Assembly (NCBI GenBank): GCA_050253335.1
Contig: JBFWJG010000045.1
Location: 1-18,941, forward strand
Reading direction: 5' to 3'
DNA length: 18,941 bases
From: Deferribacterales bacterium
Lineage (GTDB): Bacteria; Chrysiogenota; Deferribacteres; Deferribacterales; Geovibrionaceae
This document shows positions 1 to 9,637 of the stretch, piece after piece. Both the position numbers and the translations under genes were made by a program. Position 1 is the stretch's first letter. Each line of letters opens with the position of its first letter. The notes under the pieces are model-generated. The model ran no database searches, was not told where the DNA came from, and saw nothing but the letters and a program-made list of their open reading frames with translations.

Positions 1-3
1 AAA

Positions 4-95
4 GCCAAATTCTCCATCCGTGGGAATTTGGCATACACGTTCGCGCCGCATGAAATGCGGCTTCACTACGCGCGGCGGGTTCCCTCATGGGAACC
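4..95 (-). repeat. Three-hairpin GGA element (family A), copy A1
   Basis: Read on the - strand: hairpin ggttcc-CATGAG-ggaacc, linker cgccgcgcgtagtgaa, 17-nt hairpin gccgcat-ttc-atgcggc, linker gcgaacgtgta, hairpin gccaaattccc-ACGGAT-ggagaatttggc. Same layout as the copies at 301, 2429, 2789, 6056 and 8667. Confidence 0.85.
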
Positions 96-132
96 ATATC
101 TTTTCTGCCTTCGCTTAAAAACAAAAAAGTAT

Positions 133-245
133 ATATTTGCATAAATCCTCCCCAGCCCTCCTTTAACATAAAGGAGGGTGTTTTGCTTTTAACTGCAATA
201 CTTCCGCCTTTAACAAAGGGAAATAGAGGGGGATTTTGCAGATAT
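133..245. repeat. Nested palindromic (cruciform/REP-like) element
   Basis: Outer inverted repeat atatttgcataaatcctcccc...gggggattttgcagatat encloses two hairpins: ccctccttta-aca-taaaggaggg (156-178) and ccttt-aac-aaagg (207-219). Confidence 0.7.
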
Positions 246-300
246 GAACAAGCCTGTTGCTATGTTTGCCATGAGTTTGGCGCTCCCGTCTGTTTTGACA

Positions 301-396
301 ATCCAAAATTTGCCGTCCCTGGAAATTTTGGATACACGCTCGCGGCAGGTGAAACCTGCCTTCGCTGCACACGGTGCGCTCCCATCCTTGAGAGCG
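301..396 (-). repeat. Three-hairpin GGA element (family A), copy A2
   Basis: - strand: cgctctc-AAGGAT-gggagcg, caccgtgtgcagcgaa, ggcaggt-ttc-acctgcc, gcgagcgtgta, tccaaaatttcc-AGGGAC-ggcaaattttgga. Confidence 0.88.
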
Positions 397-550
397 TTTT
401 TGTTTTCAGCGTCACTGCGGGGAGCAGAGTGACGCGGCAGTCCCGTTTCCTGCATTAACCGCATCAGGCTGATATTACCTTCCTGCGTAATCACAAAATG
501 CTATTTTCATCACAGCTTAAATCCTTTATGCGTATAGCTTAAAAAACCAC

Positions 551-579
551 TTGACAGTGCGGAGCTCAACTCTTATTCT
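551..579 (+). promoter_or_regulatory. Sigma70-type promoter of the hrcA-grpE-dnaK-dnaJ operon
   Basis: TTGACA (551-556), 17-bp spacer, TATTCT (574-579), immediately upstream of CIRCE. Confidence 0.85.
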
Positions 580-583
580 TTAT

Positions 584-610
584 TTAGCACTCTTTAAGGT
601 TGAGTGCTAA
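584..610. promoter_or_regulatory. CIRCE operator (HrcA binding site)
   Basis: Exact TTAGCACTC-N9-GAGTGCTAA directly upstream of hrcA. Confidence 0.98.
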
Positions 611-650
611 CAATACTGACAGGATATTGATAAAACAGGTAAAGCTTGAA

Positions 651-1679
651 ATGCTGAACGAAAGGGAAGAGTCGGTACTCAGAATTATCGTTGAGGAATA
701 CATAAAGACCAGCGAGCCCGTCGGTTCCCGCTATATCTCAAAAAGCGGGCCGCTGCAGCTGAGCGCCGCATCCATACGCAACATAATGAGCGACCTTGAA
801 GAGAAGGGGTATCTCACCCAGCCGCATACTTCCGCCGGGCGAATCCCTTCCGACAACGGTTACCGCTATTACATAGACAAGCTGGTGGTTTTCGGCTCAC
901 CGGACAATGACATAATCTCCTCACTTCAGGAAGGCTGCCAAACCACCAGCGTTAACAGCTTCTTACAGCATTTCAGCCGTAAAATGGGCACACTGACCAA
1001 CGCAGTGGGCTTCGTTGTTGCGCCCAAACTGAACACAATGCACCTGAAACACATAGAATTTTTACAGTTTAACGCATACACGGTTCTGGCTGTAATAGTC
1101 ACCAAATCCGGCATTGTGCATAACCTCATGCTGGAGATGGAAAAACCGGTGGAGAAAAGCGACCTCACAAGGGTGAGCAACTACCTGAACCAGCACTTCG
1201 GCGATAAATCGCTGGGCGAGATAAAGACACACATACTCAGCGAGATGCAGGACAGAAAGGAGCACCTCGACAAGCTTTTTGAAAGGGCGTACACCCTCGG
1301 CGAGAGGGTTTTTTCCGTTGAGAACTTCGGGCATGAGATATATCTGGAAGGGACTTCAAACGTTCTGGATATGCCGGAGTTCAGAGATGTCCAGAAAATT
1401 AAAGAGATATACAGAATGTTTGAGGAAAAGCACTTCATCAGCGAAATACTGGACAAGTGCATGACCGAGAGCGGAGTGCAGATCTTTGTGGGCTCAGAAA
1501 TAGGCAAGGAGGAGATAAACGAACTCGGCCTTGTCTCCAAAACCTACTCCAGAGGCGGCAAAGTGGTGGGCAGCCTCGGCATAATAGGCCCGAAGAGGAT
1601 GAGCTACCCCAAGGTTGTCTCCATTGTGGACTGCACATCGGAGATCATAACCAAAATGCTCAACAGGCTTTCTGAATAA
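651..1679 (+). CDS. hrcA: Heat-inducible transcription repressor HrcA
   Basis: Motifs MLNERE..L..IVEEYI.T.EPVGS, SAASIRN.MSDLEE.GYL.QPHTSAGRIPSD.GYRYY and GIIGPKRM.Y. Start placed at ATG 651 (caggt SD-like at 636-640) because the TTG at 600 lies inside CIRCE. Confidence 0.97.
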   Translation: MLNEREESVLRIIVEEYIKTSEPVGSRYISKSGPLQLSAASIRNIMSDLEEKGYLTQPHTSAGRIPSDNGYRYYIDKLVVFGSPDNDIISSLQEGCQTTSVNSFLQHFSRKMGTLTNAVGFVVAPKLNTMHLKHIEFLQFNAYTVLAVIVTKSGIVHNLMLEMEKPVEKSDLTRVSNYLNQHFGDKSLGEIKTHILSEMQDRKEHLDKLFERAYTLGERVFSVENFGHEIYLEGTSNVLDMPEFRDVQKIKEIYRMFEEKHFISEILDKCMTESGVQIFVGSEIGKEEINELGLVSKTYSRGGKVVGSLGIIGPKRMSYPKVVSIVDCTSEIITKMLNRLSE

Positions 1680-1703
1680 GTAATAAATGACAAGAGGATA
1701 TAG

Positions 1704-2246
1704 ATGAATTCGGACGAGAAAAAAACTTTGGATGAACAGGCGGCGGAAAACTGTGCTGCGGAGGAACCTGCGGCGGAGAAGAGCGAGCTTGAGCTTCTGA
1801 AGGAAGAGAACGAAGCTCTCAGAAAACAGGCGGAGGAAGCGAAAGGGGATGCCCTCAGAGCAATTGCGGATGCCGATAACTTCCGCAAGCGCATGGCGAA
1901 AGAGGCGGAGGACAGAATAAAATTCGCAGGCACGAAGATACTGGAAAGCTTGCTCCCCGTGCTGGACAACCTCGAAATGGCTCTTATGCACGCTGAGGGG
2001 GACAACCCACTGAAACAGGGTGTGGAACTCACTCTTAAACAGATGCTTGAGACTCTGGGCAAAAACGGGCTTGAAAAGATCGCGCTGGAAACCGGAGCAG
2101 AGTTTGACCCCGCATTCCACGAGGCGCTCATGCTGGATAATACGGATGAATACGGAAACAACTGCGTTACCATGATTCTCCAGAACGGCTACACCCTCAA
2201 CGGCAGAGTGATACGCCCTGCTAAAGTTAAGGTAAATAAGAAGTAG
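1704..2246 (+). CDS. grpE: Nucleotide exchange factor GrpE
   Basis: Motifs LRA.AD.DNFRKR, LLPVLDNLE.AL, FDPAFHEA and GY.LNGRVIRPAKV.V; SD gagga; located between hrcA and dnaK. Confidence 0.97.
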   Translation: MNSDEKKTLDEQAAENCAAEEPAAEKSELELLKEENEALRKQAEEAKGDALRAIADADNFRKRMAKEAEDRIKFAGTKILESLLPVLDNLEMALMHAEGDNPLKQGVELTLKQMLETLGKNGLEKIALETGAEFDPAFHEALMLDNTDEYGNNCVTMILQNGYTLNGRVIRPAKVKVNKK

Positions 2247-2280
2247 ACCACTCTCTTAGGGAGTGCGTGTCTGATACCAA

Positions 2281-2414
2281 ACACACCCATGGATGGGTGC
2301 GTGGAGTGCGCAGCACAGCGAATGCGAGCAGCGCAAACGGAACCAGAGCAGCAAGGAGCTTTGCTCCGCAGGCTGCGAGTGAAAAAAAACTACAGGAAGT
2401 ACGTTTTTTTGAAC
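2281..2414 (+). repeat. Multi-hairpin GGA element (family D), copy D1
   Basis: caccc-ATGGAT-gggtg; a cgcagc...gctgcg-closed domain containing tgcg-agcag-cgca and gagca-gc-AAGGA-gc-tt-tgctc; then A8-c-tac-AGGAA-gta-c-g-T7. Near-identical to 2507-2640 and 2652-2774. Confidence 0.92.
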
Positions 2415-2428
2415 CAAGATCAGAAAGA

Positions 2429-2506
2429 GGCACACTGATGTGCCGACGCCGTGCGCAGCGAAGGTTTGCTTTGCAAACCGCGAGCGTGTACCGGAATCTG
2501 ACAGGA
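2429..2506 (+). repeat. Family A element, copy B1 (3'-truncated at the AGGA loop)
   Basis: Identical to 2789-2866, but stops after ccggaatctgacAGGA and joins D2. Confidence 0.9.
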
Positions 2507-2640
2507 ACACACCCATGGATGGGTGCGTGGAGCGCGCAGCACAGCGAATGCGAGCAGCGCAAGCGTAACCAGAGCAGCAAGGAGCTTTGCTCCGCAGGCT
2601 GCGAGTGAAAAAAAAGTGCAGGACGCAGCTTTTTTTGAAC
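2507..2640 (+). repeat. Family D element, copy D2
   Basis: Direct repeat of D1 at offset 226; the last hairpin carries compensatory changes (g-tgc-AGGAC-gca-g-c). Confidence 0.92.
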
Positions 2641-2651
2641 TAACATAAGAC

Positions 2652-2774
2652 GGATGGGTGCGTGGAGCGCGCAGCACAGCGAATGCGAGCAGCGCAAGCG
2701 TAACCAGAGCAGCAAGGAGCTTTGCTCCGCAGGCTGCGAGTGAAAAAAAACTACAGGAAGTACGTTTTTTGAAC
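2652..2774 (+). repeat. Family D element, copy D3 (5'-truncated at the first GGA loop)
   Basis: Identity to D1/D2 begins at GGATgggtgcgtgg; offset 135 from D2. Confidence 0.92.
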
Positions 2775-2788
2775 CAAGATAAGAAAGA

Positions 2789-2881
2789 GGCACACTGATG
2801 TGCCGACGCCGTGCGCAGCGAAGGTTTGCTTTGCAAACCGCGAGCGTGTACCGGAATCTGACAGGATGTCCAGATTCCGGT
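2789..2881 (+). repeat. Family A element, copy B2
   Basis: ggcac-ACTGAT-gtgcc, cgccgtgcgcagcgaa, ggtttgc-ttt-gcaaacc, gcgagcgtgta, ccggaatctg-ac-AGGAT-gt-c-cagattccgg. Confidence 0.9.
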
Positions 2882-2928
2882 GATAAGGACGGATTAAATA
2901 AGTAAAAGATATATCAGGAGGCATTTAT

Positions 2929-4851
2929 ATGAGCAAAGTAATCGGTATAGACCTCGGTACGACAAACTCGGTCGTGGCCATAATGGAAGGCGGTCAGCCG
3001 AAAGTTATCGCAAATGCGGAGGGCATGAACACAACTCCCTCTGTTGTTGCATTCACGGATTCAGACAGACTTGTGGGTCTGCTTGCGAAAAGACAGGCGA
3101 TCACTAACCCCGAAAACACGGTTTTCAGCATTAAAAGGCTTATCGGACGCAAGGTTGACGCTCCTCAGGTTGCTAAGGCGAAATCAGTTCTCCCCTACAG
3201 CATTGTCCCTTCCGACAACGGCGATGCGTGGGTTCAGGTTAAGGACAAGAAATTCGCTCCGCCCGAAATCTCCGCTATGATACTCCAGAAGCTGAAAAAA
3301 ACAGCGGAGGACTACCTCGGCGAAACCGTAACGGACGCTGTTGTAACTGTTCCTGCCTACTTTAACGATGCTCAGCGTCAGGCGACAAAGGATGCGGGCA
3401 AAATTGCGGGGCTTAACGTTCTCCGTATAATAAACGAACCCACGGCGGCGGCTCTCGCTTACGGTCTGGATAAAAAGCACGATGAAAAAATCGCGGTCTA
3501 TGACCTCGGCGGCGGTACTTTCGATGTGTCTATCCTCGAACTCGGCGACGGCGTTTTCGAAGTTAAGTCAACCAACGGTGACACATTCCTCGGCGGTGAC
3601 GACTTTGACATGCGTATAGTGGAATTCCTCATCGACCAGTTTAAAAAAGAAAACGGAATCGACCTCAGAAACGATAAAATGGCGCTTCAGAGGCTTAAAG
3701 AAGCCGCTGAAAAAGCCAAGCATGAGCTTTCAAGCTCAACAGAAACGGAGATCAACCTTCCGTTCATCACCGCAGACCAGACAGGCCCCAAGCACCTTGT
3801 GGTGAAAATGAACAGAAGCAAGCTGGAATCCCTCGTTATGGATCTGGTTGAAAACTCCCTTGAACCCTGCCGCAAAGCCCTTGCGGATGCCGGTCTCAAG
3901 GCGTCTGACATTGACGAGGTTATTCTTGTCGGCGGTATGACGAGAATGCCCCTTGTTCAGCAGAAGGTTAAGGCCTTCTTCGGCAAAGAGCCCCACAAAG
4001 GCATCAACCCCGATGAGGTGGTTGCTGTCGGTGCGGCTATTCAGGGCGCGGTTCTCAAAGGCGATGTGAAGGATGTTCTTCTTCTTGACGTAACACCCCT
4101 TTCACTCGGCATTGAAACCCTCGGCGGCGTGATGACAAAAATCATCCCCAGAAACACCACAATCCCCACAAGGAAAAGCCAGGTGTTCACAACCGCTGCG
4201 GATAACCAGACTTCAGTTACCATCAGCGTCTTCCAGGGAGAGCGTGAAATGGCTGCGGACAACAAATCCATCGGGCGTTTCGACCTTGTAGGTCTTCCTT
4301 CCGCTCCCAGAGGGCTCCCTCAGATCGAGGTTACATTCGACCTTGACGCAAACGGCATACTGAACGTTGCCGCTAAGGATCAGGGAACAGGCAAGGAACA
4401 GTCCATCAGGATAACACCCAGCAGCGGTCTTTCCGATGAAGAAGTCGATCGCATGGTTAAGGACGCCGAACTCAACGCTGATGCCGATAAGAAGAAAAAA
4501 GAGCTTGTGGAAATCCGCAATCAGGCTGACACTCTTATCTACAGCACGGAAAAATCCCTCGCCGACCACGGGGATAAGCTTGACGAAGCAACCAAAAACA
4601 ACATAGAATCCGCCAAGGAAGAGCTTAAAGCTGTTCAGGGCGGTGAAGATGTCGAGGCTATAAAAGCCGCTGTGGAAAAACTCACCGAAGCTTCTCACAA
4701 GCTCGCTGAAGTTATCTACAACGCTGCCCAGCAGCAGAATGCGCAGGGTGACGCAGGCGCACACCAGCACACTGAAGAACCCTCAGCATCCGCAAAAGAC
4801 GAAAACGTAGTCGATGCGGACTTCGAAGAAGTAAAAGACGATAAGAAATAA
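2929..4851 (+). CDS. dnaK: Molecular chaperone DnaK (Hsp70)
   Basis: Motifs [39 protein letters not shown] and C-terminal [11 protein letters not shown] aggagg. Confidence 0.99.
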
Positions 4852-4864
4852 CATAACTTATAAG

Positions 4865-4890
4865 AAGGGAGCCGTAACAGGCTCCCTTTA
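4865..4890 (+). terminator. Stem-loop after dnaK (weak intrinsic terminator or mRNA stabiliser)
   Basis: 9-bp stem aagggagcc-gtaaca-ggctccctt with only a short U run. Confidence 0.65.
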
Positions 4891-4931
4891 ACTTCCTTCC
4901 CAAATAACAGCCTTTTTACGGGGATAAGTCA

Positions 4932-6053
4932 TTGAGCAGAGATTATTATGAGATCCTTGGCGTAAATAAGAACGCCTCGGAAGCAGAAATCAAAAAAGCC
5001 TACCGCAAACTGGCGATGGACTACCATCCCGACCGCAACCCGGGCAACAAAGAAGCCGAAGAAAAATTCAGAGAACTCTCAGAAGCATACGAAGTGCTGA
5101 GCGATCCGCAGAAGAGAGCGCAGTTTGATCAGTACGGCCGTGTTTTCGACAACAACGGATTCTCCGGAGGTTCCGGCGGATTCAGCGGCGCAGGAGCGGA
5201 AACCATTTTCGAGGAGTTCTTCGGCGATGTATTCGGCGACTTTTTCGGCTCCGCGGGACGCTCACGGAAGAAAAGCCGCCCCACCAGAGGGGGGGACATC
5301 AAACTCCGCCATGAAATAGAATTTGAACAGGCCGTTTTCGGCTGTGATATAGAAGTAAGCGTGCCCCGCATTGTGGAATGCACCAAATGCGGCGGAACAG
5401 GCGCGGAGGACGGCGGCATAGACACATGCGCCACATGCCGCGGAACAGGCGTTATCCAGAACAGGCAGGGGCTTTTCGCCATAACCACCACATGCTCATC
5501 ATGCGGCGGAACAGGCAAGGTCATAAAGAATGTCTGCAAGGAATGCAAAGGCGAAGGCGCAAAACGCATCCATAAAAAACTCAGCGTAAAAGTTCCCGCA
5601 GGAATAGAAGACGGCATGACAATCAGAATCAGCGGCGAAGGCAACCACGGACGCAACGGTGGGCCGGCGGGCGATCTTTATATAGCTGTAACTGTCAGGG
5701 AACATAAATTCTTCCGCCGTGACGGAAGGGACATCTATCTGGAACTTCCCGTGTCCGCCGTGGATGCAATGCTGGGTAAAACCATCGAAATTCCCACACT
5801 GGAAGGCAAAGAGGAAATAAAAATCAAGCCCGGCTCCCAGCCCGGAGATGTCATAACCCTCAAAGGAAAAGGCATAGCCGATGTTCAGGGCTACGGCGTG
5901 GGGAACCAGTACATAGAACTCAAGGTTATCATCCCCACCAAACTCACTAAAAAACAGAAAGACCTGCTGGCAAAATTCGAGGCGGATTCCAACGAAGACA
6001 CCTACAAAACCGACAGATCCCTGTTTGATAAAATAAAGGATTTTTTCGGGTAA
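4932..6053 (+). CDS. dnaJ: Molecular chaperone DnaJ
   Basis: J domain with HPD, G/F-rich region and four CxxCxGxG zinc repeats; TTG start. Confidence 0.98.
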
Positions 6054-6207
6054 AACATCTTCACGGATGAAGATGCGCCGTGCGGAGCGAAGACTTGCCC
6101 TGCAAGGCGCGAGCGGTTCAGGCGAACCGCAGGACGCAGGTTCGCCGATATTAAGTTGATAAAATAAAGGATTTTTTCGGATAATACATCTTCACGGATG
6201 AAGATGC
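6025..6207 (+). repeat. 52-bp direct repeat (6025-6076 and 6156-6207) duplicating the dnaJ 3' end plus a GGA hairpin
   Basis: ttgataaaataaaggattttttcggRtaaWacatcttcacggatgaagatgc; 2 mismatches; offset 131. Confidence 0.93.
6056..6146 (+). repeat. Family A element, copy C
   Basis: catcttc-ACGGAT-gaagatg, cgccgtgcggagcgaa, gacttgc-cct-gcaaggc, gcgagcggttca, ggcgaacc-gc-AGGAC-gc-a-ggttcgcc. Confidence 0.88.
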
Positions 6208-6224
6208 TTGGCTAAAAATTTGGT

Positions 6225-6365
6225 TTTTTGGGAAGAGTTTGAGAAACCGTTTTTTCCCATAAAAAAAGGGTTTCTCATGAGCTTTTTATCAATAAAGTAA
6301 GAGTATTATAGCTTTACGGGGAAACTTTTTGTAAAAAGCTTTCCCCATACCCCTTCAAAAATTTT
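6225..6365. repeat. Inverted pair of AT-rich palindromic REP-like units
   Basis: + unit: tttttgggaagagtt followed by hairpin tgagaaacc..ggtttctca (6240-6277). - unit: tttttgaaggggtat followed by hairpin ggggaaa(g)cttttt..aaaaagtttcccc (6318-6346). Confidence 0.65.
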
Positions 6366-6402
6366 AAACTGCTTCGCAAAGATTCAGCAGTGAGGTATTT
6401 AT

Positions 6403-7785
6403 ATGTCCAAACTCAGTGCGGCAAGGCTCAAGGTAAAGAATGACAGTCTGGTGGATGAGTTCAACGCGTCTATTCATTTCGACAAGCGTTTGTACCGTCA
6501 TGACATAAAGGGCAGCATAGCTCATGCTGAGATGCTCGCTTCATGCGGTATTCTTACTGCGGAAGAGGCTGATGCGATTAAGGGCGGTCTTCTTGCTGTT
6601 CTCGGTGAGATAGAGTCCGGCGGTTTTGTTTTCCGTACTGAGGACGAGGACATCCACATGGCGGTTGAGAAGCGTATGACGGAGATAGTGGGCAGTGTGG
6701 GCGGAAAGCTTCATACAGCCCGCAGCAGGAACGATCAGGTTGCTGTGGATGTGCGCATGTATCTCCGTGAGGAGATTGAGGTTATCACGGGCTACATGGC
6801 GGAGCTTGTGAAGACTCTGACAGATAAGGCGGAGAAGCACTTAGGCGTACTTATGCCCGGCTACACTCATTTGCAGACGGCGCAGCCTGTCCTTGTTTCC
6901 CACTGGCTTATGGCGTATGTACAGATGTTCCGCAGGGATCACGGCAGGCTGGCGGACTGTGCGGAGAGGATGAATTTTTCCCCGCTGGGTTCAGGAGCCC
7001 TTGCCGGAACGACATTTGCGATAAACCGTGACATGACGGCGGCGAGCCTCGGGTTTACCGCACCAACTGAGAACAGTCTTGATTCGGTGAGCGACCGTGA
7101 TTTTGCTCTGGAGTTTCTTTCCGCGGCTGCCATATGCCAGATGCACCTTTCAAGATTCTCGGAAGAACTGATAATTTTCTCCACATCGGAGTTCGCGTTC
7201 ATAGATTTAAGTGATGACTTCTGCACGGGCAGCAGCATAATGCCTCAGAAGAAGAATCCGGATATGCCTGAGCTGATCAGGGGCAAGACCGGGCGCATGT
7301 ACGGCAACCTTGTGAGCCTGCTCACTACTATGAAGGGACTGCCCCTTGCATATAACAAAGATATGCAGGAGGACAAGGAGCCGCTTTTCGACTCTGTGGA
7401 CACGCTCAAGGCTTCCCTGCGCATATTCATTCCCATGATAGAGAAGATGGGCATAAACGCTGAAAAAATGACGAAAGCGGCGAAGCTCGGCTTCTCCACC
7501 GCCACTGATCTGGCTGACTATCTTGTGCGCAAGGGGATGCCTTTCAGGGAGGCGCACCATGTGGTGGGTTCCGCTGTGGCTTTTGCACTGGATAAGAGGG
7601 CTGACATAAGCGAACTGACGCTGGCGGAGCTTAAATCCTTTTCCGAAAAGATAGATGATGATATATATTCATACATCACCCCTGAAGCGTCCGTAAGCAG
7701 CAGAAAGGCGAAGGGCGGCACTGCCGGGGAATCCGTAAAGGCGCAGATAGAAAGCGCGAGGAAGTTTCTGGATGAGGTTTTATAA
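6403..7785 (+). CDS. argH: Argininosuccinate lyase
   Basis: Motifs [27 protein letters not shown], the fumarate-lyase signature [12 protein letters not shown] and [10 protein letters not shown]. Confidence 0.98.
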
Positions 7786-8659
7786 ATATATCCTGACACT
7801 TATTGCTGTTCTGGCTCTGTTCTCAGGCTGCGGCAAGAAGACCGACCCTGTTGTGCTCACTGAGGCCGTTCCTGCTCCGGGTGAGAATCTGCGTATTTTC
7901 AACAATGATCAGGGCGTGGTTATCCGCAATGCGGACAAGCGTTTTGCTGTTAAGGTGCAGAGGGCGGTTTTTGACCCTTCCTGCGGATGCCTGACGGACT
8001 ATGCGGATATAACCGAAATTCCGCCGTCCACCGCCTTTGTGGATGATAATGTCACTGCGGATGTGCGCTATGTTTACAGCATCGTTGCTCTGCATCCGGT
8101 TTACAACAACAGATCCCAGCCTGTGAAAAAGGCTGTTATATATGCCAAGCCGGTTAAAATAACCGATGTGCAGATAAAGGAACTCGCAGGGGACAGGTTC
8201 GCATTCACCCTTAAAGCGGACAGACCCTATGAGCGCTTCGAGGTTTTCATAGACGGCGGGCTTGAGCTCCGCACCTCAAGGGAAAGCTTCGAGGTGAACA
8301 TGGAAGGGAAGGAAAACCGCACCGTTACCATGTATCCTTTTGACAAATACGGCAACGCAGGCGAGGAGAGGATTGTCCGCCTCGCTGTGAAGCAGGTTGT
8401 TCCCAGAGCGCCTTTCGGCTTCAGAAGTGTTTACGGGAACGGAACACTGACCCTTTCATGGGATGAGCCGGAAGGGGCGTGGCTCTATAATGTTTATATA
8501 ATGAAGGGCGGAAACTACTCATTTCTGGCAAAAGTTGATGTGCCCTTCTTCATGTACTCCGTGGGGCAGAACACCACGGACTGCCTGAAGTTTGCTGTTT
8601 CATCAGCAACAGACGGCAGCGAATCCGACAGAACGGAATACGAGGCGTGCTGGCCCTGA
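7772..8659 (+). CDS. Lipoprotein with fibronectin type III-like beta domains
   Basis: Signal peptide with lipobox LFSG-C followed by GKKTDP; FN3-like motifs (FVDDNV...YVYSIVA; P.AP.G....[10 protein letters not shown]....YNVY). Overlaps the argH end by 14 nt. Confidence 0.75.
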
Positions 8660-8666
8660 TTTAATA

Positions 8667-8759
8667 ATCCTGAATTTCCCTCCATGGAAATTCAGGATAC
8701 ACGCTCGCGGCAGGAAAAACCTGCCTTCGCTTCGCACGGCGGAACTCCATCCGTGGAGT
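8667..8759 (-). repeat. Family A element, copy A3
   Basis: - strand: actcc-ACGGAT-ggagt, cgccgtgcgaagcgaa, ggcagg-ttttt-cctgcc, gcgagcgtgta, tcctgaatttcc-ATGGAG-ggaaattcagga. Confidence 0.88.
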
Positions 8760-8805
8760 GTTTCTGTTGAGAGGCAAGAGTATCTGGCTGTCCTGTTTTT
8801 CCTGC

Positions 8806-8834
8806 TTGAAAAACGGACATGCGCTATATATAAT
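8806..8834 (+). promoter_or_regulatory. Sigma70-type promoter of the TPR-folE2-ankyrin unit
   Basis: TTGAAA (8806-8811), 17 bp, TATAAT (8829-8834). Confidence 0.7.
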
Positions 8835-8917
8835 TTGTGACTTTTCCCTGCTCTTTTGAAAAAGCAGGTTGTTTTAGGAAAAAGTAAAAAAGATTTTTCA
8901 TACAGGTCGGTGTTTTT

Positions 8918-9637
8918 ATGTTTACTATTCTTATTTCCGTCAGTGCGTCAGCTCTCCTTGCCATAGGGATTTATGCCCTGACCTACAACATCTGGTGGTC
9001 GCTCACCGTGGCAGTTCTGGGTATCATCGCCGTAAACTTCTTTCTGGGCAGGCATTTTCTTAACAAGCTCAAGGAACTTTTCGGCAGTGTGGAAAAGGAC
9101 CTCCGCGCGGGAAGATATGAGAAGGCAATAGAGCGCCTCAAAGAGGGGTACAAATACTCCAACTGGCAGTTCTTCGTAAAAGAGCAGATCAACGCTCAGA
9201 TAGGCATAATCCTCTATTCCACCAAAAAGCTTGATGAGGCGGTTTCCTACCTTGAGAAGGGGTTTGACAAAAACTGGCTCTCCATGAGTATGCTCGCCGC
9301 TTCCCAGTACAGGGCGAAAGAGACTGAAAAAGCGCTCAAGACCCTTGAGTCCGCTGTAAAAGGATCGCCTAAGGAAGGATTTGTCTACAGCTTCTACGCG
9401 TGGATGCTCAGCGGAAACGGAGACGATTCAAAAGCAATAGAAGTGCTGAACAAAGGGTTTAAGAAATGTCCGCTTGATGAAAAGCTTGAGGCGAACCTTG
9501 AGGCGCTGAAAAACGGCAAGAAGATAAAAATGGAGAGATACGGCAACGTATGGCTTCAGCTTCAGCTTACAAAAGTTCCCGAAGGCGCAAAACCTTACCA
9601 GCAGTTCATAGCCAACCAGCGCATTAAGAGAAGGTAA
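8918..9637 (+). CDS. Membrane-anchored tetratricopeptide repeat protein
   Basis: Two N-terminal hydrophobic helices, then TPR-like helices (YEKAIERLKEG, LDEAVSYLEKG, KALKTLESAVK, KAIEVLNKG). Confidence 0.75.
   Translation: MFTILISVSASALLAIGIYALTYNIWWSLTVAVLGIIAVNFFLGRHFLNKLKELFGSVEKDLRAGRYEKAIERLKEGYKYSNWQFFVKEQINAQIGIILYSTKKLDEAVSYLEKGFDKNWLSMSMLAASQYRAKETEKALKTLESAVKGSPKEGFVYSFYAWMLSGNGDDSKAIEVLNKGFKKCPLDEKLEANLEALKNGKKIKMERYGNVWLQLQLTKVPEGAKPYQQFIANQRIKRR

What the first reader, a model, noticed from the sequence alone, without database searches (positions are those of the whole stretch)
4..8759. Dispersed ~92-nt element conserved in structure rather than sequence, with CsrA-type GGA loops at both ends
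Seen in sequence: six copies (4-95 -, 301-396 -, 2429-2506 +, 2789-2881 +, 6056-6146 +, 8667-8759 -) share one layout: hairpin 1, linker CRCCGYGYGNAGYGAA, hairpin 2, linker GCGARCGTGTA (gcgagcggttca in copy C), hairpin 3. Hairpin 2 is always 17 nt although its arms differ: gccgcat/atgcggc, ggcaggt/acctgcc, ggtttgc/gcaaacc, gacttgc/gcaaggc. The stems of hairpins 1 and 3 are largely unrelated between copies, yet their loops stay AAGGAT, ACGGAT, AGGGAC, AGGAT, AGGAC or ATGGAG (degenerate in A1, B1 and B2 hairpin 1). Established: a GGA in a hairpin loop is the CsrA/RsmA recognition motif, and REP-type elements are mobilised by HUH transposases acting on folded ssDNA. Inference: a structured non-autonomous mobile element or modular RNA under selection on its fold, possibly spreading paired CsrA sites. 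BLAST would largely miss it because only the linkers are conserved. I cannot say whether it has been described.
Basis: partly seen in the sequence, partly recalled or inferred. Interest (0 to 1): 0.85.

Follow-up and report, generated by a model that had tools for sequence, protein, structure and literature searches.

The report
Mobile twin-GGA hairpin repeat, Deferribacterales
The six repeats are real copies of a small folded mobile element, present over a hundred times per genome and related to known but unexplained bacterial repeats; it carries regulator-like binding loops at both ends and copies a variable stretch of neighbouring DNA when it lands, although no enzyme that moves it was found.

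Summary
Real. A ~95-nt four-hairpin element occurs 118 times (exact core) in this genome and 86-264 times in three congeners. Divergent copies occur in two Deferribacterales families; none were found elsewhere. Hairpins 1 and 3 carry CsrA-type loops. Its tandem-GA stem shows the same three arm pairs as TwoAYGGAY (RF01731), but there is no basal stem and no Rfam hit. It is a rearranged relative of the TwoAYGGAY/YPAL repeats, a class this scan has met in other genomes.

New here is the insertion footprint. In 21 of 73 loci the upstream flank is repeated after the element (shuffled mean 0.17). The repeat is 14-74 nt long and starts about 10 nt past hairpin 3, at a TGA/TGGA target (20 of 31, background 12%; motif chosen after seeing the data). 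Arrays are head-to-tail only, and sites vary between close relatives.

The HUH/REP idea is not supported: no Y1 transposase in the five high-copy genomes and no inverted doublets. IS110, IS4/5 and IS1634 enzymes are also missing there, and reverse transcriptase from four of five. CsrA binding, expression and the mobilising enzyme remain untested.

The parts
4..97 (-). Element copy A1: H1 97-78 (degenerate loop), core 77-38, H3 34-4; at the contig start
   Evidence: (83.6 bits)
301..396 (-). Element copy A2: H1 396-377, core 376-337, H3 333-301
   Evidence: (95.6 bits); G024 keeps only an H3 remnant at this spot
2233..2246 (+). Last codons and stop of grpE; left copy of a degenerate 11-14 nt target duplication whose right copy is at 2895-2905
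   Evidence: G025 has the motif once and no element; read by eye
2280..2414 (+). Second family (F2), copy 1: same GGA end hairpins, longer middle with its own covarying hairpin
   Evidence: 37.1 bits
2427..2505 (+). Element copy B1: H1 loop degenerate, H3 cut after its loop by an F2 copy
   Evidence: (63.7 bits)
2506..2640 (+). F2 copy 2
2652..2774 (+). F2 copy 3, 5'-truncated inside the H1 loop
2787..2893 (+). Element copy B2: H1 2787-2806, core 2807-2846, H3 2850-2881, tail to about 2893
   Evidence: (99.9 bits)
6025..6055 (+). Left copy of the duplicated flank X (3' end and stop codon of dnaJ)
   Evidence: family D11
6056..6155 (+). Element copy C (6056-6146) and tail; starts 2 nt after the dnaJ stop
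   Evidence: (82.1 bits); filled in G026, absent in G024
6156..6207 (+). Right copy of X plus a second H1 (96% identical to 6025-6076)
   Evidence: family D11
8667..8761 (-). Element copy D between convergent 3' end of ORF 7772-8659 and the start side of ORF 8918-9637
   Evidence: (102.1 bits); absent in G025 and skipped by one contig of run X2

Best explanation
A non-autonomous mobile repeat of the twin-GGA (TwoAYGGAY/YPAL-like) kind, specific to part of the Deferribacterales. Anatomy (shown): H1, a 7-bp stem with an ANGGAN loop; a 3-bp mini-hairpin; a tandem-GA stem capped by H2; H3, an 11-bp stem with a bulged GGA hairpin; and a ~10-nt tail. No terminal inverted repeats. Insertion (footprint shown, steps inferred): two staggered cuts 14-74 nt apart, one at a T(G)GA target. 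The cut end pairs over 2-4 nt with the tail end and copies the GGA strand. The 5' end joins the second cut, sometimes through 4-10 nt of microhomology to the H1 arm. The result is X-element-X. Later events (inferred): unequal recombination between the X repeats makes head-to-tail arrays or deletes the element, and exchange between copies shuffles H1, H2 and H3. At RNA level (inferred): most copies lie in sense behind a gene, so transcripts display a pair of CsrA-type loops. CsrA binding plus the hairpins would protect the RNA ends and may titrate CsrA. The enzyme is unidentified, and whether the template is RNA or single-stranded DNA is open.
For: Covariation: 86.8% of cells paired vs 63.0% shuffled, 24 of 31 pairs with two-sided change, 0 of 500 shuffles as high. 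Linker pairs R1-Y7 G-C 120/A-T 6 and Y12-R37 C-G 121/T-A 7 of 129. The arm pairs AGCGA/GAGCG, AGTGA/GAACG and AATGA/GAATG also occur in TwoAYGGAY seed rows. CsrA-type loops in both H1 and H3 in 91 of 128 copies, none in H2. X-element-X in 21 of 73 own loci vs shuffled mean 0.17, and 10 of 41 G024 loci vs 0.03. At 30 junctions the tail is 7-18 nt (17 at 9-11) and X is 14-74 nt. TGA/TGGA at the X start in 20 of 31 vs 12% background. At one locus the H1 5' arm equals native coding sequence of the neighbouring gene (L254-L256). Occupancy, copy number and H2 type differ between genomes whose flanks are 76-99% identical. Sense bias 29 vs 8 between co-directional genes, p 7.5e-4; 2 of 58 loci between divergent genes vs 207 of 806 background gaps. 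YPAL has variable 3-26 bp duplications and no TA ends (PMC2229807).
Against: No enzyme found. Reverse transcriptase PF00078 is absent from G000, G024, G026 and G027, and four RT loci of family members have no copy nearby. G-T pairs are rare in the stems (16 vs 1231 Watson-Crick; A-C 9), against roughly 30 of 445 in tRNA stems, which points to DNA-level palindrome upkeep. 52 of 73 loci show no detectable duplication (>=12 nt needed), and about 4 of the 21 positives start inside H3 and are doubtful. The TGA motif was chosen after seeing the data, and one locus is counted twice. Several right-hand X copies run 18-23 nt into H1, which fits a decayed second copy rather than a plain target duplication. 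csrA is in 57 of 65 class genomes, so its presence does not discriminate. Strand bias is confounded with replichore (G026: 100+/45- in the first half). Expression was not shown.
Confidence: 0.62

Rival explanations
1. The repeats arise without a true insertion footprint. An element inserted cleanly; hairpin-induced slippage or rolling-circle read-through then duplicated [flank+element] in tandem, and the downstream copy decayed, leaving X-element-X(+partial H1). Stems are kept perfect by template switching in DNA.
For: Right-hand X often continues 18-23 nt into H1; remnants of decayed copies at L170, L173, L176, L196; very few G-T pairs; arrays all head-to-tail.
Against: At the MntR-like locus the right X is intact coding sequence running into the gene body, which would need insertion inside the gene followed by exact repair. 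At grpE-dnaK the element-free allele is X-R contiguous. A fixed tail and a TGA bias are not expected from random slippage. No Y1 or Y2 HUH gene found (the Y2 control was silent).
Confidence: 0.2
2. Domesticated regulatory RNA module: a CsrA-binding 3'-UTR stabiliser or sponge kept by host selection, with mobility incidental.
For: Exact CANGGANG/CAGGANG loops; sense bias; one site retained across genera (L223/L227); one contig of depth 2327 carrying an element variant in run X2; the same idea was proposed for TwoAYGGAY.
Against: Copy number runs from a few to 264 among csrA-positive kin; sites are polymorphic between close genomes; flanking genes show no common function (read by eye); the high-depth contig is one run of four, and contigs cannot show RNA level.
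Confidence: 0.1
3. REP/REPIN-like element moved as folded single-stranded DNA by a RAYT/IS200-type HUH transposase.
For: Stable folds also as DNA; low G-T content; intergenic, gene-3' location.
Against: Y1_Tnp in 0 of 5 high-copy genomes, including a one-contig genome with 264 copies; 0 of 38 multi-copy loci inverted; long variable duplications; no gene repeatedly flanked by copies: 4 genes flanked on both sides, none nuclease-like (read by eye).
Confidence: 0.08

Closest known systems
TwoAYGGAY RNA motif (Rfam RF01731; PMC2864571 supplement 5; PMC4333381; bioRxiv 10.64898/2026.09.22.753630)
   Same: 7-bp ANGGAY hairpin first, bulged GGA hairpin second, tandem-GA stem with the same three covarying arm pairs; multi-copy, variable copy number, CsrA binding proposed and mobility unresolved (passages).
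   Different: No basal stem; the tandem-GA stem is capped by a non-GGA hairpin and the second GGA hairpin stands separately; extra mini-hairpin; head-to-tail arrays instead of 68% divergent doublets; best RF01731 score in the genome 22.4 bits vs 43.
YPAL/RU-2 repeats of Yersinia (seen through PMC2229807 and PMC2759123; the primary paper PMC1636318 is not held)
   Same: Non-coding, no TA termini, no true terminal inverted repeat, variable target duplication, empty/filled sites, linked to upstream transcripts; the printed RU-2 sequence shows two GGA hairpin loops (by eye).
   Different: ~95 nt open chain of hairpins vs ~168 nt; duplications here 14-74 nt (shorter ones not searched) vs 3-26 bp; fixed 3' end and T(G)GA target not mentioned in the passages seen; no sequence alignment was made.
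CsrB/RsmZ-type sponge sRNAs
   Same: Hexaloop and pentaloop GGA hairpins (consensus recalled; PMC4333381 passage says such motifs occur in pairs).
   Different: Two sites per unit at about 80 dispersed loci, not one gene with many sites; only a weak RsmZ score in a relative (23.8 bits vs 44).
REP/REPIN-RAYT and TIR-type MITEs
   Same: Short, palindromic, intergenic, more than 100 copies.
   Different: No RAYT/Y1 gene, no inverted doublets, no terminal inverted repeats, variable long duplications.

Membership tests
TwoAYGGAY (RF01731) | Two hairpins with AYGGAY-type terminal loops | tested here: met
   CANGGANG or CAGGANG in H1 98 of 128 and H3 114 of 128, both 91 of 128; loops are ANGGAN, looser than AYGGAY
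TwoAYGGAY (RF01731) | The two hairpins adjacent on a common basal stem | tested here: not met
   About 44 nt with two further hairpins lie between them; flank complementarity 3.42 vs shuffled 3.46 +- 0.09, n=116
TwoAYGGAY (RF01731) | Tandem-GA stem | tested here: met
   G13.A36 129/129, A14.G35 121/129, covarying closing pairs; same arm variants in seed rows; but capped by a non-GGA hairpin
TwoAYGGAY (RF01731) | Rfam gathering score | tested here: not met
   1 hit, 22.4 bits vs 43, E 0.67, in own genome; no hit in window 1-9500 or in 10 relative loci
YPAL/RU-2 | Variable-length target duplication | tested here: met
   21 of 73 loci vs 0.17 shuffled; 14-74 nt
YPAL/RU-2 | No terminal inverted repeat | tested here: met
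   No flank complementarity above shuffle
YPAL/RU-2 | Empty and filled orthologous sites | tested here: met
   (joints 2254>2850 and 8655>8796)
YPAL/RU-2 | Co-transcription with the upstream gene | tested here: inconclusive
   Sense bias 29 vs 8; RNA-library contigs cannot show strand or level
YPAL/RU-2 | Sequence homology to the 168-nt unit | not tested
   Only the loops were compared by eye with the printed table
REP/REPIN-RAYT | Associated RAYT/Y1 HUH transposase | tested here: not met
   0 of 5 high-copy genomes
REP/REPIN-RAYT | Inverted doublets | tested here: not met
   0 of 38 multi-copy loci have mixed orientation
TIR-type MITE | Terminal inverted repeats and fixed-length duplication | tested here: not met
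CsrB/RsmZ sponge sRNA | Binding to CsrA | not testable with these tools
   csrA present in a flgL-fliW-csrA cluster (gene names read from the translations, recalled); no binding data
CsrB/RsmZ sponge sRNA | Stand-alone transcript with own promoter and many GGA sites | not tested
   No promoter scan run; each unit has two sites

The most novel reading that the evidence does not exclude
A bacterial SINE-like element. A ~105-nt processed RNA, clamped at both ends by CsrA and trimmed to ~10 nt past hairpin 3, is copied into staggered chromosomal nicks by target-primed synthesis using a host enzyme or an unrecognised reverse transcriptase. This would explain the fixed 3' end, the T(G)GA target, the variable 14-74 nt duplication, the 5' microhomology and the sense bias, and might apply to the whole TwoAYGGAY/YPAL class.
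Probability: 0.2. Interest if true: 0.88.

Novelty: new variant of a known kind. Interest (0 to 1): 0.57.

Why it matters
Twin-GGA repeats (TwoAYGGAY, YPAL) are widespread, and a 2026 preprint leaves the link between their mobility and regulation unresolved. This family offers hundreds of copies in small, apparently transposase-poor genomes, and a measurable junction rule: fixed 3' end, T(G)GA target, variable duplication. That rule can be checked at once in the other families and narrows the possible enzymes. If CsrA binds, up to ~260 paired sites per genome would also tie a selfish repeat to a flagellar FliW-CsrA circuit.

Tried and rejected
GNA DNA mini-hairpin idea for the GCGNAGC linker (motif recalled): the N is free (A42 C40 G27 T20), but variants give only wobble there and true compensation in other pairs, so it was dropped.

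Partner-gene searches: Y1_Tnp; GIY-YIG, only a UvrC-sized hit in the own genome; RVT_1 (loci checked); IS1634 NF033559; IS110; Y2_Tnp (nothing rang in controls, so absence is not shown); DDE_Tnp_1. None tracks the high-copy genomes. The own assembly has no contig under 2.6 kb, so short IS contigs may be missing; G026 is one contig. Other IS families (IS3, IS256, IS30, TnpB) and integrases were not searched.

Wider distribution: exact pattern in viral contigs 0; blastn of one copy against plasmids and phages, no match. Absence outside the order is therefore not proven.

Stop-codon targeting: 12 of 54 sense loci start <=3 nt from a stop; p 9e-10 against a per-base null but p 0.22 against a per-gap null, so inconclusive. 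Replichore bias could not be separated from gene orientation.

Expression: four metatranscriptome runs of one study, contigs only. One contig of depth 2327 in X2 carries an element variant; the matching locus has no obviously high-expression neighbour or Rfam RNA. Inconclusive.

First junction analysis was confounded by repeats after the last copy and was replaced.

Literature searches that gave nothing on this family: 0 papers; off-topic; guessed genus name, listing only.
Full report
Setting. The window is contig C45 of a 2.58-Mb, 142-contig genome, 48.9% GC. It carries hrcA-grpE-dnaK-dnaJ-argH. Named records that hold the same element are Deferribacterales.

Observation. The six copies are real. 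The exact core occurs 118 times, with a 17-nt hairpin 2 in 110. Allowing one substitution per linker gives 144, and a profile search gives 182 hits, 143 near full length. One copy at the end of C2 probably duplicates window copy A1 through contig overlap. The exact core is in 6 of 65 class genomes: 118, 109, 86 and 264 copies in the four genomes of the own genus, 3 and 4 in two of a sister genus; the backwards control is 0 in these. A covariance model from 18 copies hits 29 of 65 genomes: all 16 of the own family, 13 of 21 of family f7, and none of seven other families (only 60 candidates scored per genome). I inspected 34 such hits from 10 genomes; most have the same order of parts (by eye). 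G027, of another genus, has 246 CCAHGGADGG sites against 29 in the control and carries longer and shorter versions with the same two end hairpins. The own genome has a second family, F2, with 20 blastn hits.

Structure. The element is therefore four hairpins in a row. Flanks show no basal stem (3.42 vs 3.46 shuffled). On the 18-row alignment 86.8% of cells pair against 63.0% shuffled and 33-48% slid, and 24 of 31 pairs change on both sides. This control is not tree-aware, and H3 is misregistered for the one-base-longer class. H1 and H3 loops match CANGGANG or CAGGANG in 98 and 114 of 128 copies, both in 91; H2 never has GGA (consensus recalled). G-T pairs are rare: 16 against 1231 Watson-Crick and 9 A-C over distinct stems, versus a rough 30 of 445 in tRNAs. 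Over 80 loci H1 and H2 types are unlinked (p 0.20) and H2-H3 are weakly linked (p 0.005), so modules are shuffled.

Context. 81 loci, 38 multi-copy, none of mixed orientation. Between co-directional genes 29 are sense and 8 antisense (p 7.5e-4); 19 are between convergent and 2 between divergent genes (background gaps; genes are my own crude ORF calls). This cannot be separated from replichore bias. Closeness to stop codons depends on the null used.

Mobility. The grpE-dnaK gap segment is 62 nt in G025 (no element), 136 in G024 (lone H3), 637 in G026 (two F2) and 723 here; dnaJ-argH is filled here and in G026 and empty in G024. I took 40 stretches around listed G024 copies (G024 has 109). Eighteen had no colinear ortholog, 15 were filled in both genomes and 7 lacked an intact core here; about 4 of these 7 hold remnants or variants. 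Among the 15, copy number differs in 9 and the H2 arms in 6 (counted by eye).

Insertion footprint. In 21 of 73 own loci the DNA just upstream of H1 is repeated right after the last copy (30 shuffles: mean 0.17, maximum 2). About 4 of the 21 start inside H3 and are doubtful. G024 gives 10 of 41 against 0.03. Pooling own, G024, G025, G026 and named loci, and keeping junctions with tails of 3-18 nt, gives 30 distinct junctions. Tails are 7-18 nt, 17 of them 9-11, while X is 14-74 nt. Without that filter, 35 of 41 junctions have median tail 10 (SD 5.7) and median X 40 (SD 16). The native target has TGA or TGGA at the X start in 20 of 31 against 12% (p 8e-12). The motif was chosen post hoc, one locus is counted twice, and part of the GA signal is overlap with the tail end; the T before it is not from the tail. 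At the other junction the right X often stops within a few bases of H1, sometimes shares 4-10 nt with the H1 arm, and sometimes includes all of H1. At an MntR-like gene the right X, including the 7 nt equal to the H1 arm, is native coding sequence; G025 has no element there but may keep a tail remnant.

Enzyme. None found. In the five high-copy genomes Y1, IS110, IS1634, DDE_Tnp_1 and Y2 profiles give 0 (the Y2 control was silent). RVT_1 hits only G025, in a tRNA-adjacent island with no copy nearby. GIY-YIG is a UvrC-sized protein only in four of the five, with one extra short hit in G024. csrA sits with fliW but is in 57 of 65 genomes.

Expression. Four RNA-library runs of one study, contigs only, cover the region at low depth. 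One X2 contig of depth 2327 carries an element variant; X3 and X4 show the short grpE-dnaK allele. This does not show transcription.

How it works. Shown: fold, copy number, polymorphic sites, X-element-X geometry, module shuffling. Inferred: staggered nicking with primed copying of the GGA strand, recombination between X repeats, CsrA binding. A fixed 3' end, target motif at the duplication start, variable duplication and 5' microhomology are the signature of target-primed insertion in eukaryotic retroelements (recalled). A ~10-nt tail also matches where 3' exonucleases stall before a stem (recalled). Against an RNA route stand the missing reverse transcriptase and the low G-T content.

Comparison. 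TwoAYGGAY seed rows show the same first hairpin, bulged second hairpin and arm variants (PMC2864571: search listing and supplement 5 parts 201-202). PMC4333381 (6 passages) proposed CsrA binding for it. The 2026 preprint (outline, abstract and 12 passages; supplements closed) reports up to 202 copies, divergent doublets and unresolved mobility. The present element fails the basal-stem and score tests, so it works like but is not a member of RF01731. YPAL is the behavioural match: variable 3-26 bp duplications, no TA ends, empty and filled sites (PMC2229807, 4 passages; PMC2759123, 12 passages; PMC3184786, passages; the primary paper was not held). Searches showed no description of this family or of the junction rule; most subscription journals are not covered. 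This scan has noted TwoAYGGAY-like repeats in at least eight other genomes and variable gene-end duplications in an archaeon; I did not test those notes.

Verdict. A real, previously uncatalogued variant of the twin-GGA mobile repeats. The class is known; the measurable insertion footprint without a detectable enzyme is the part worth following. Interest 0.57.

Noticed in passing
window 584-610 (+): Inverted repeat TTAGCACTC-N9-GAGTGCTAA upstream of hrcA, the CIRCE operator (name recalled); kept in G024 and, with changed spacers, in G025, G026 and G023.
   Followed up: no
window 115-280 and 6214-6378: Two other dispersed palindromic repeat families, each with many blast matches in congeners; a third, CGTC-type REP-like, lies near 410-445. 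Several repeat families cluster in the same gaps.
   Followed up: no
G000:C50:8700-9010: Three tandem, partly decayed copies sit between rplA and rplJ, directly before the rplJ ribosome-binding site, where an L10 leader is usual.
   Followed up: no
G027 (L143-L167): Independent expansion of longer (106-nt spacing) and shorter (66-nt spacing) elements with the same GGA end hairpins and different middles.
   Followed up: partly
L234 (G048): Copies lie between tRNA genes in a family-f7 genome.
   Followed up: no
L224 (G031): One copy lies 47 nt behind a 97-aa GIY-YIG-like gene; a single case, not seen elsewhere.
   Followed up: partly
G000 C5, C12, C13, C17, C30, C43, C67, C89 arrays: A recurring dimer class with 91-96 nt period in which the second copy lacks most of H1 and is joined at the same register, despite different H2 and H3 modules.
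   Followed up: partly
L257:3029-4531 (G025): 500-aa reverse transcriptase in a tRNA-adjacent island, probably defence-type; unrelated to the element.
   Followed up: partly
run X2, contig joining window 2807-2851: Contig of depth 2327, against 2-15 for neighbouring genes, carrying an element variant like own C29:483; not seen at such depth in the other three runs.
   Followed up: partly
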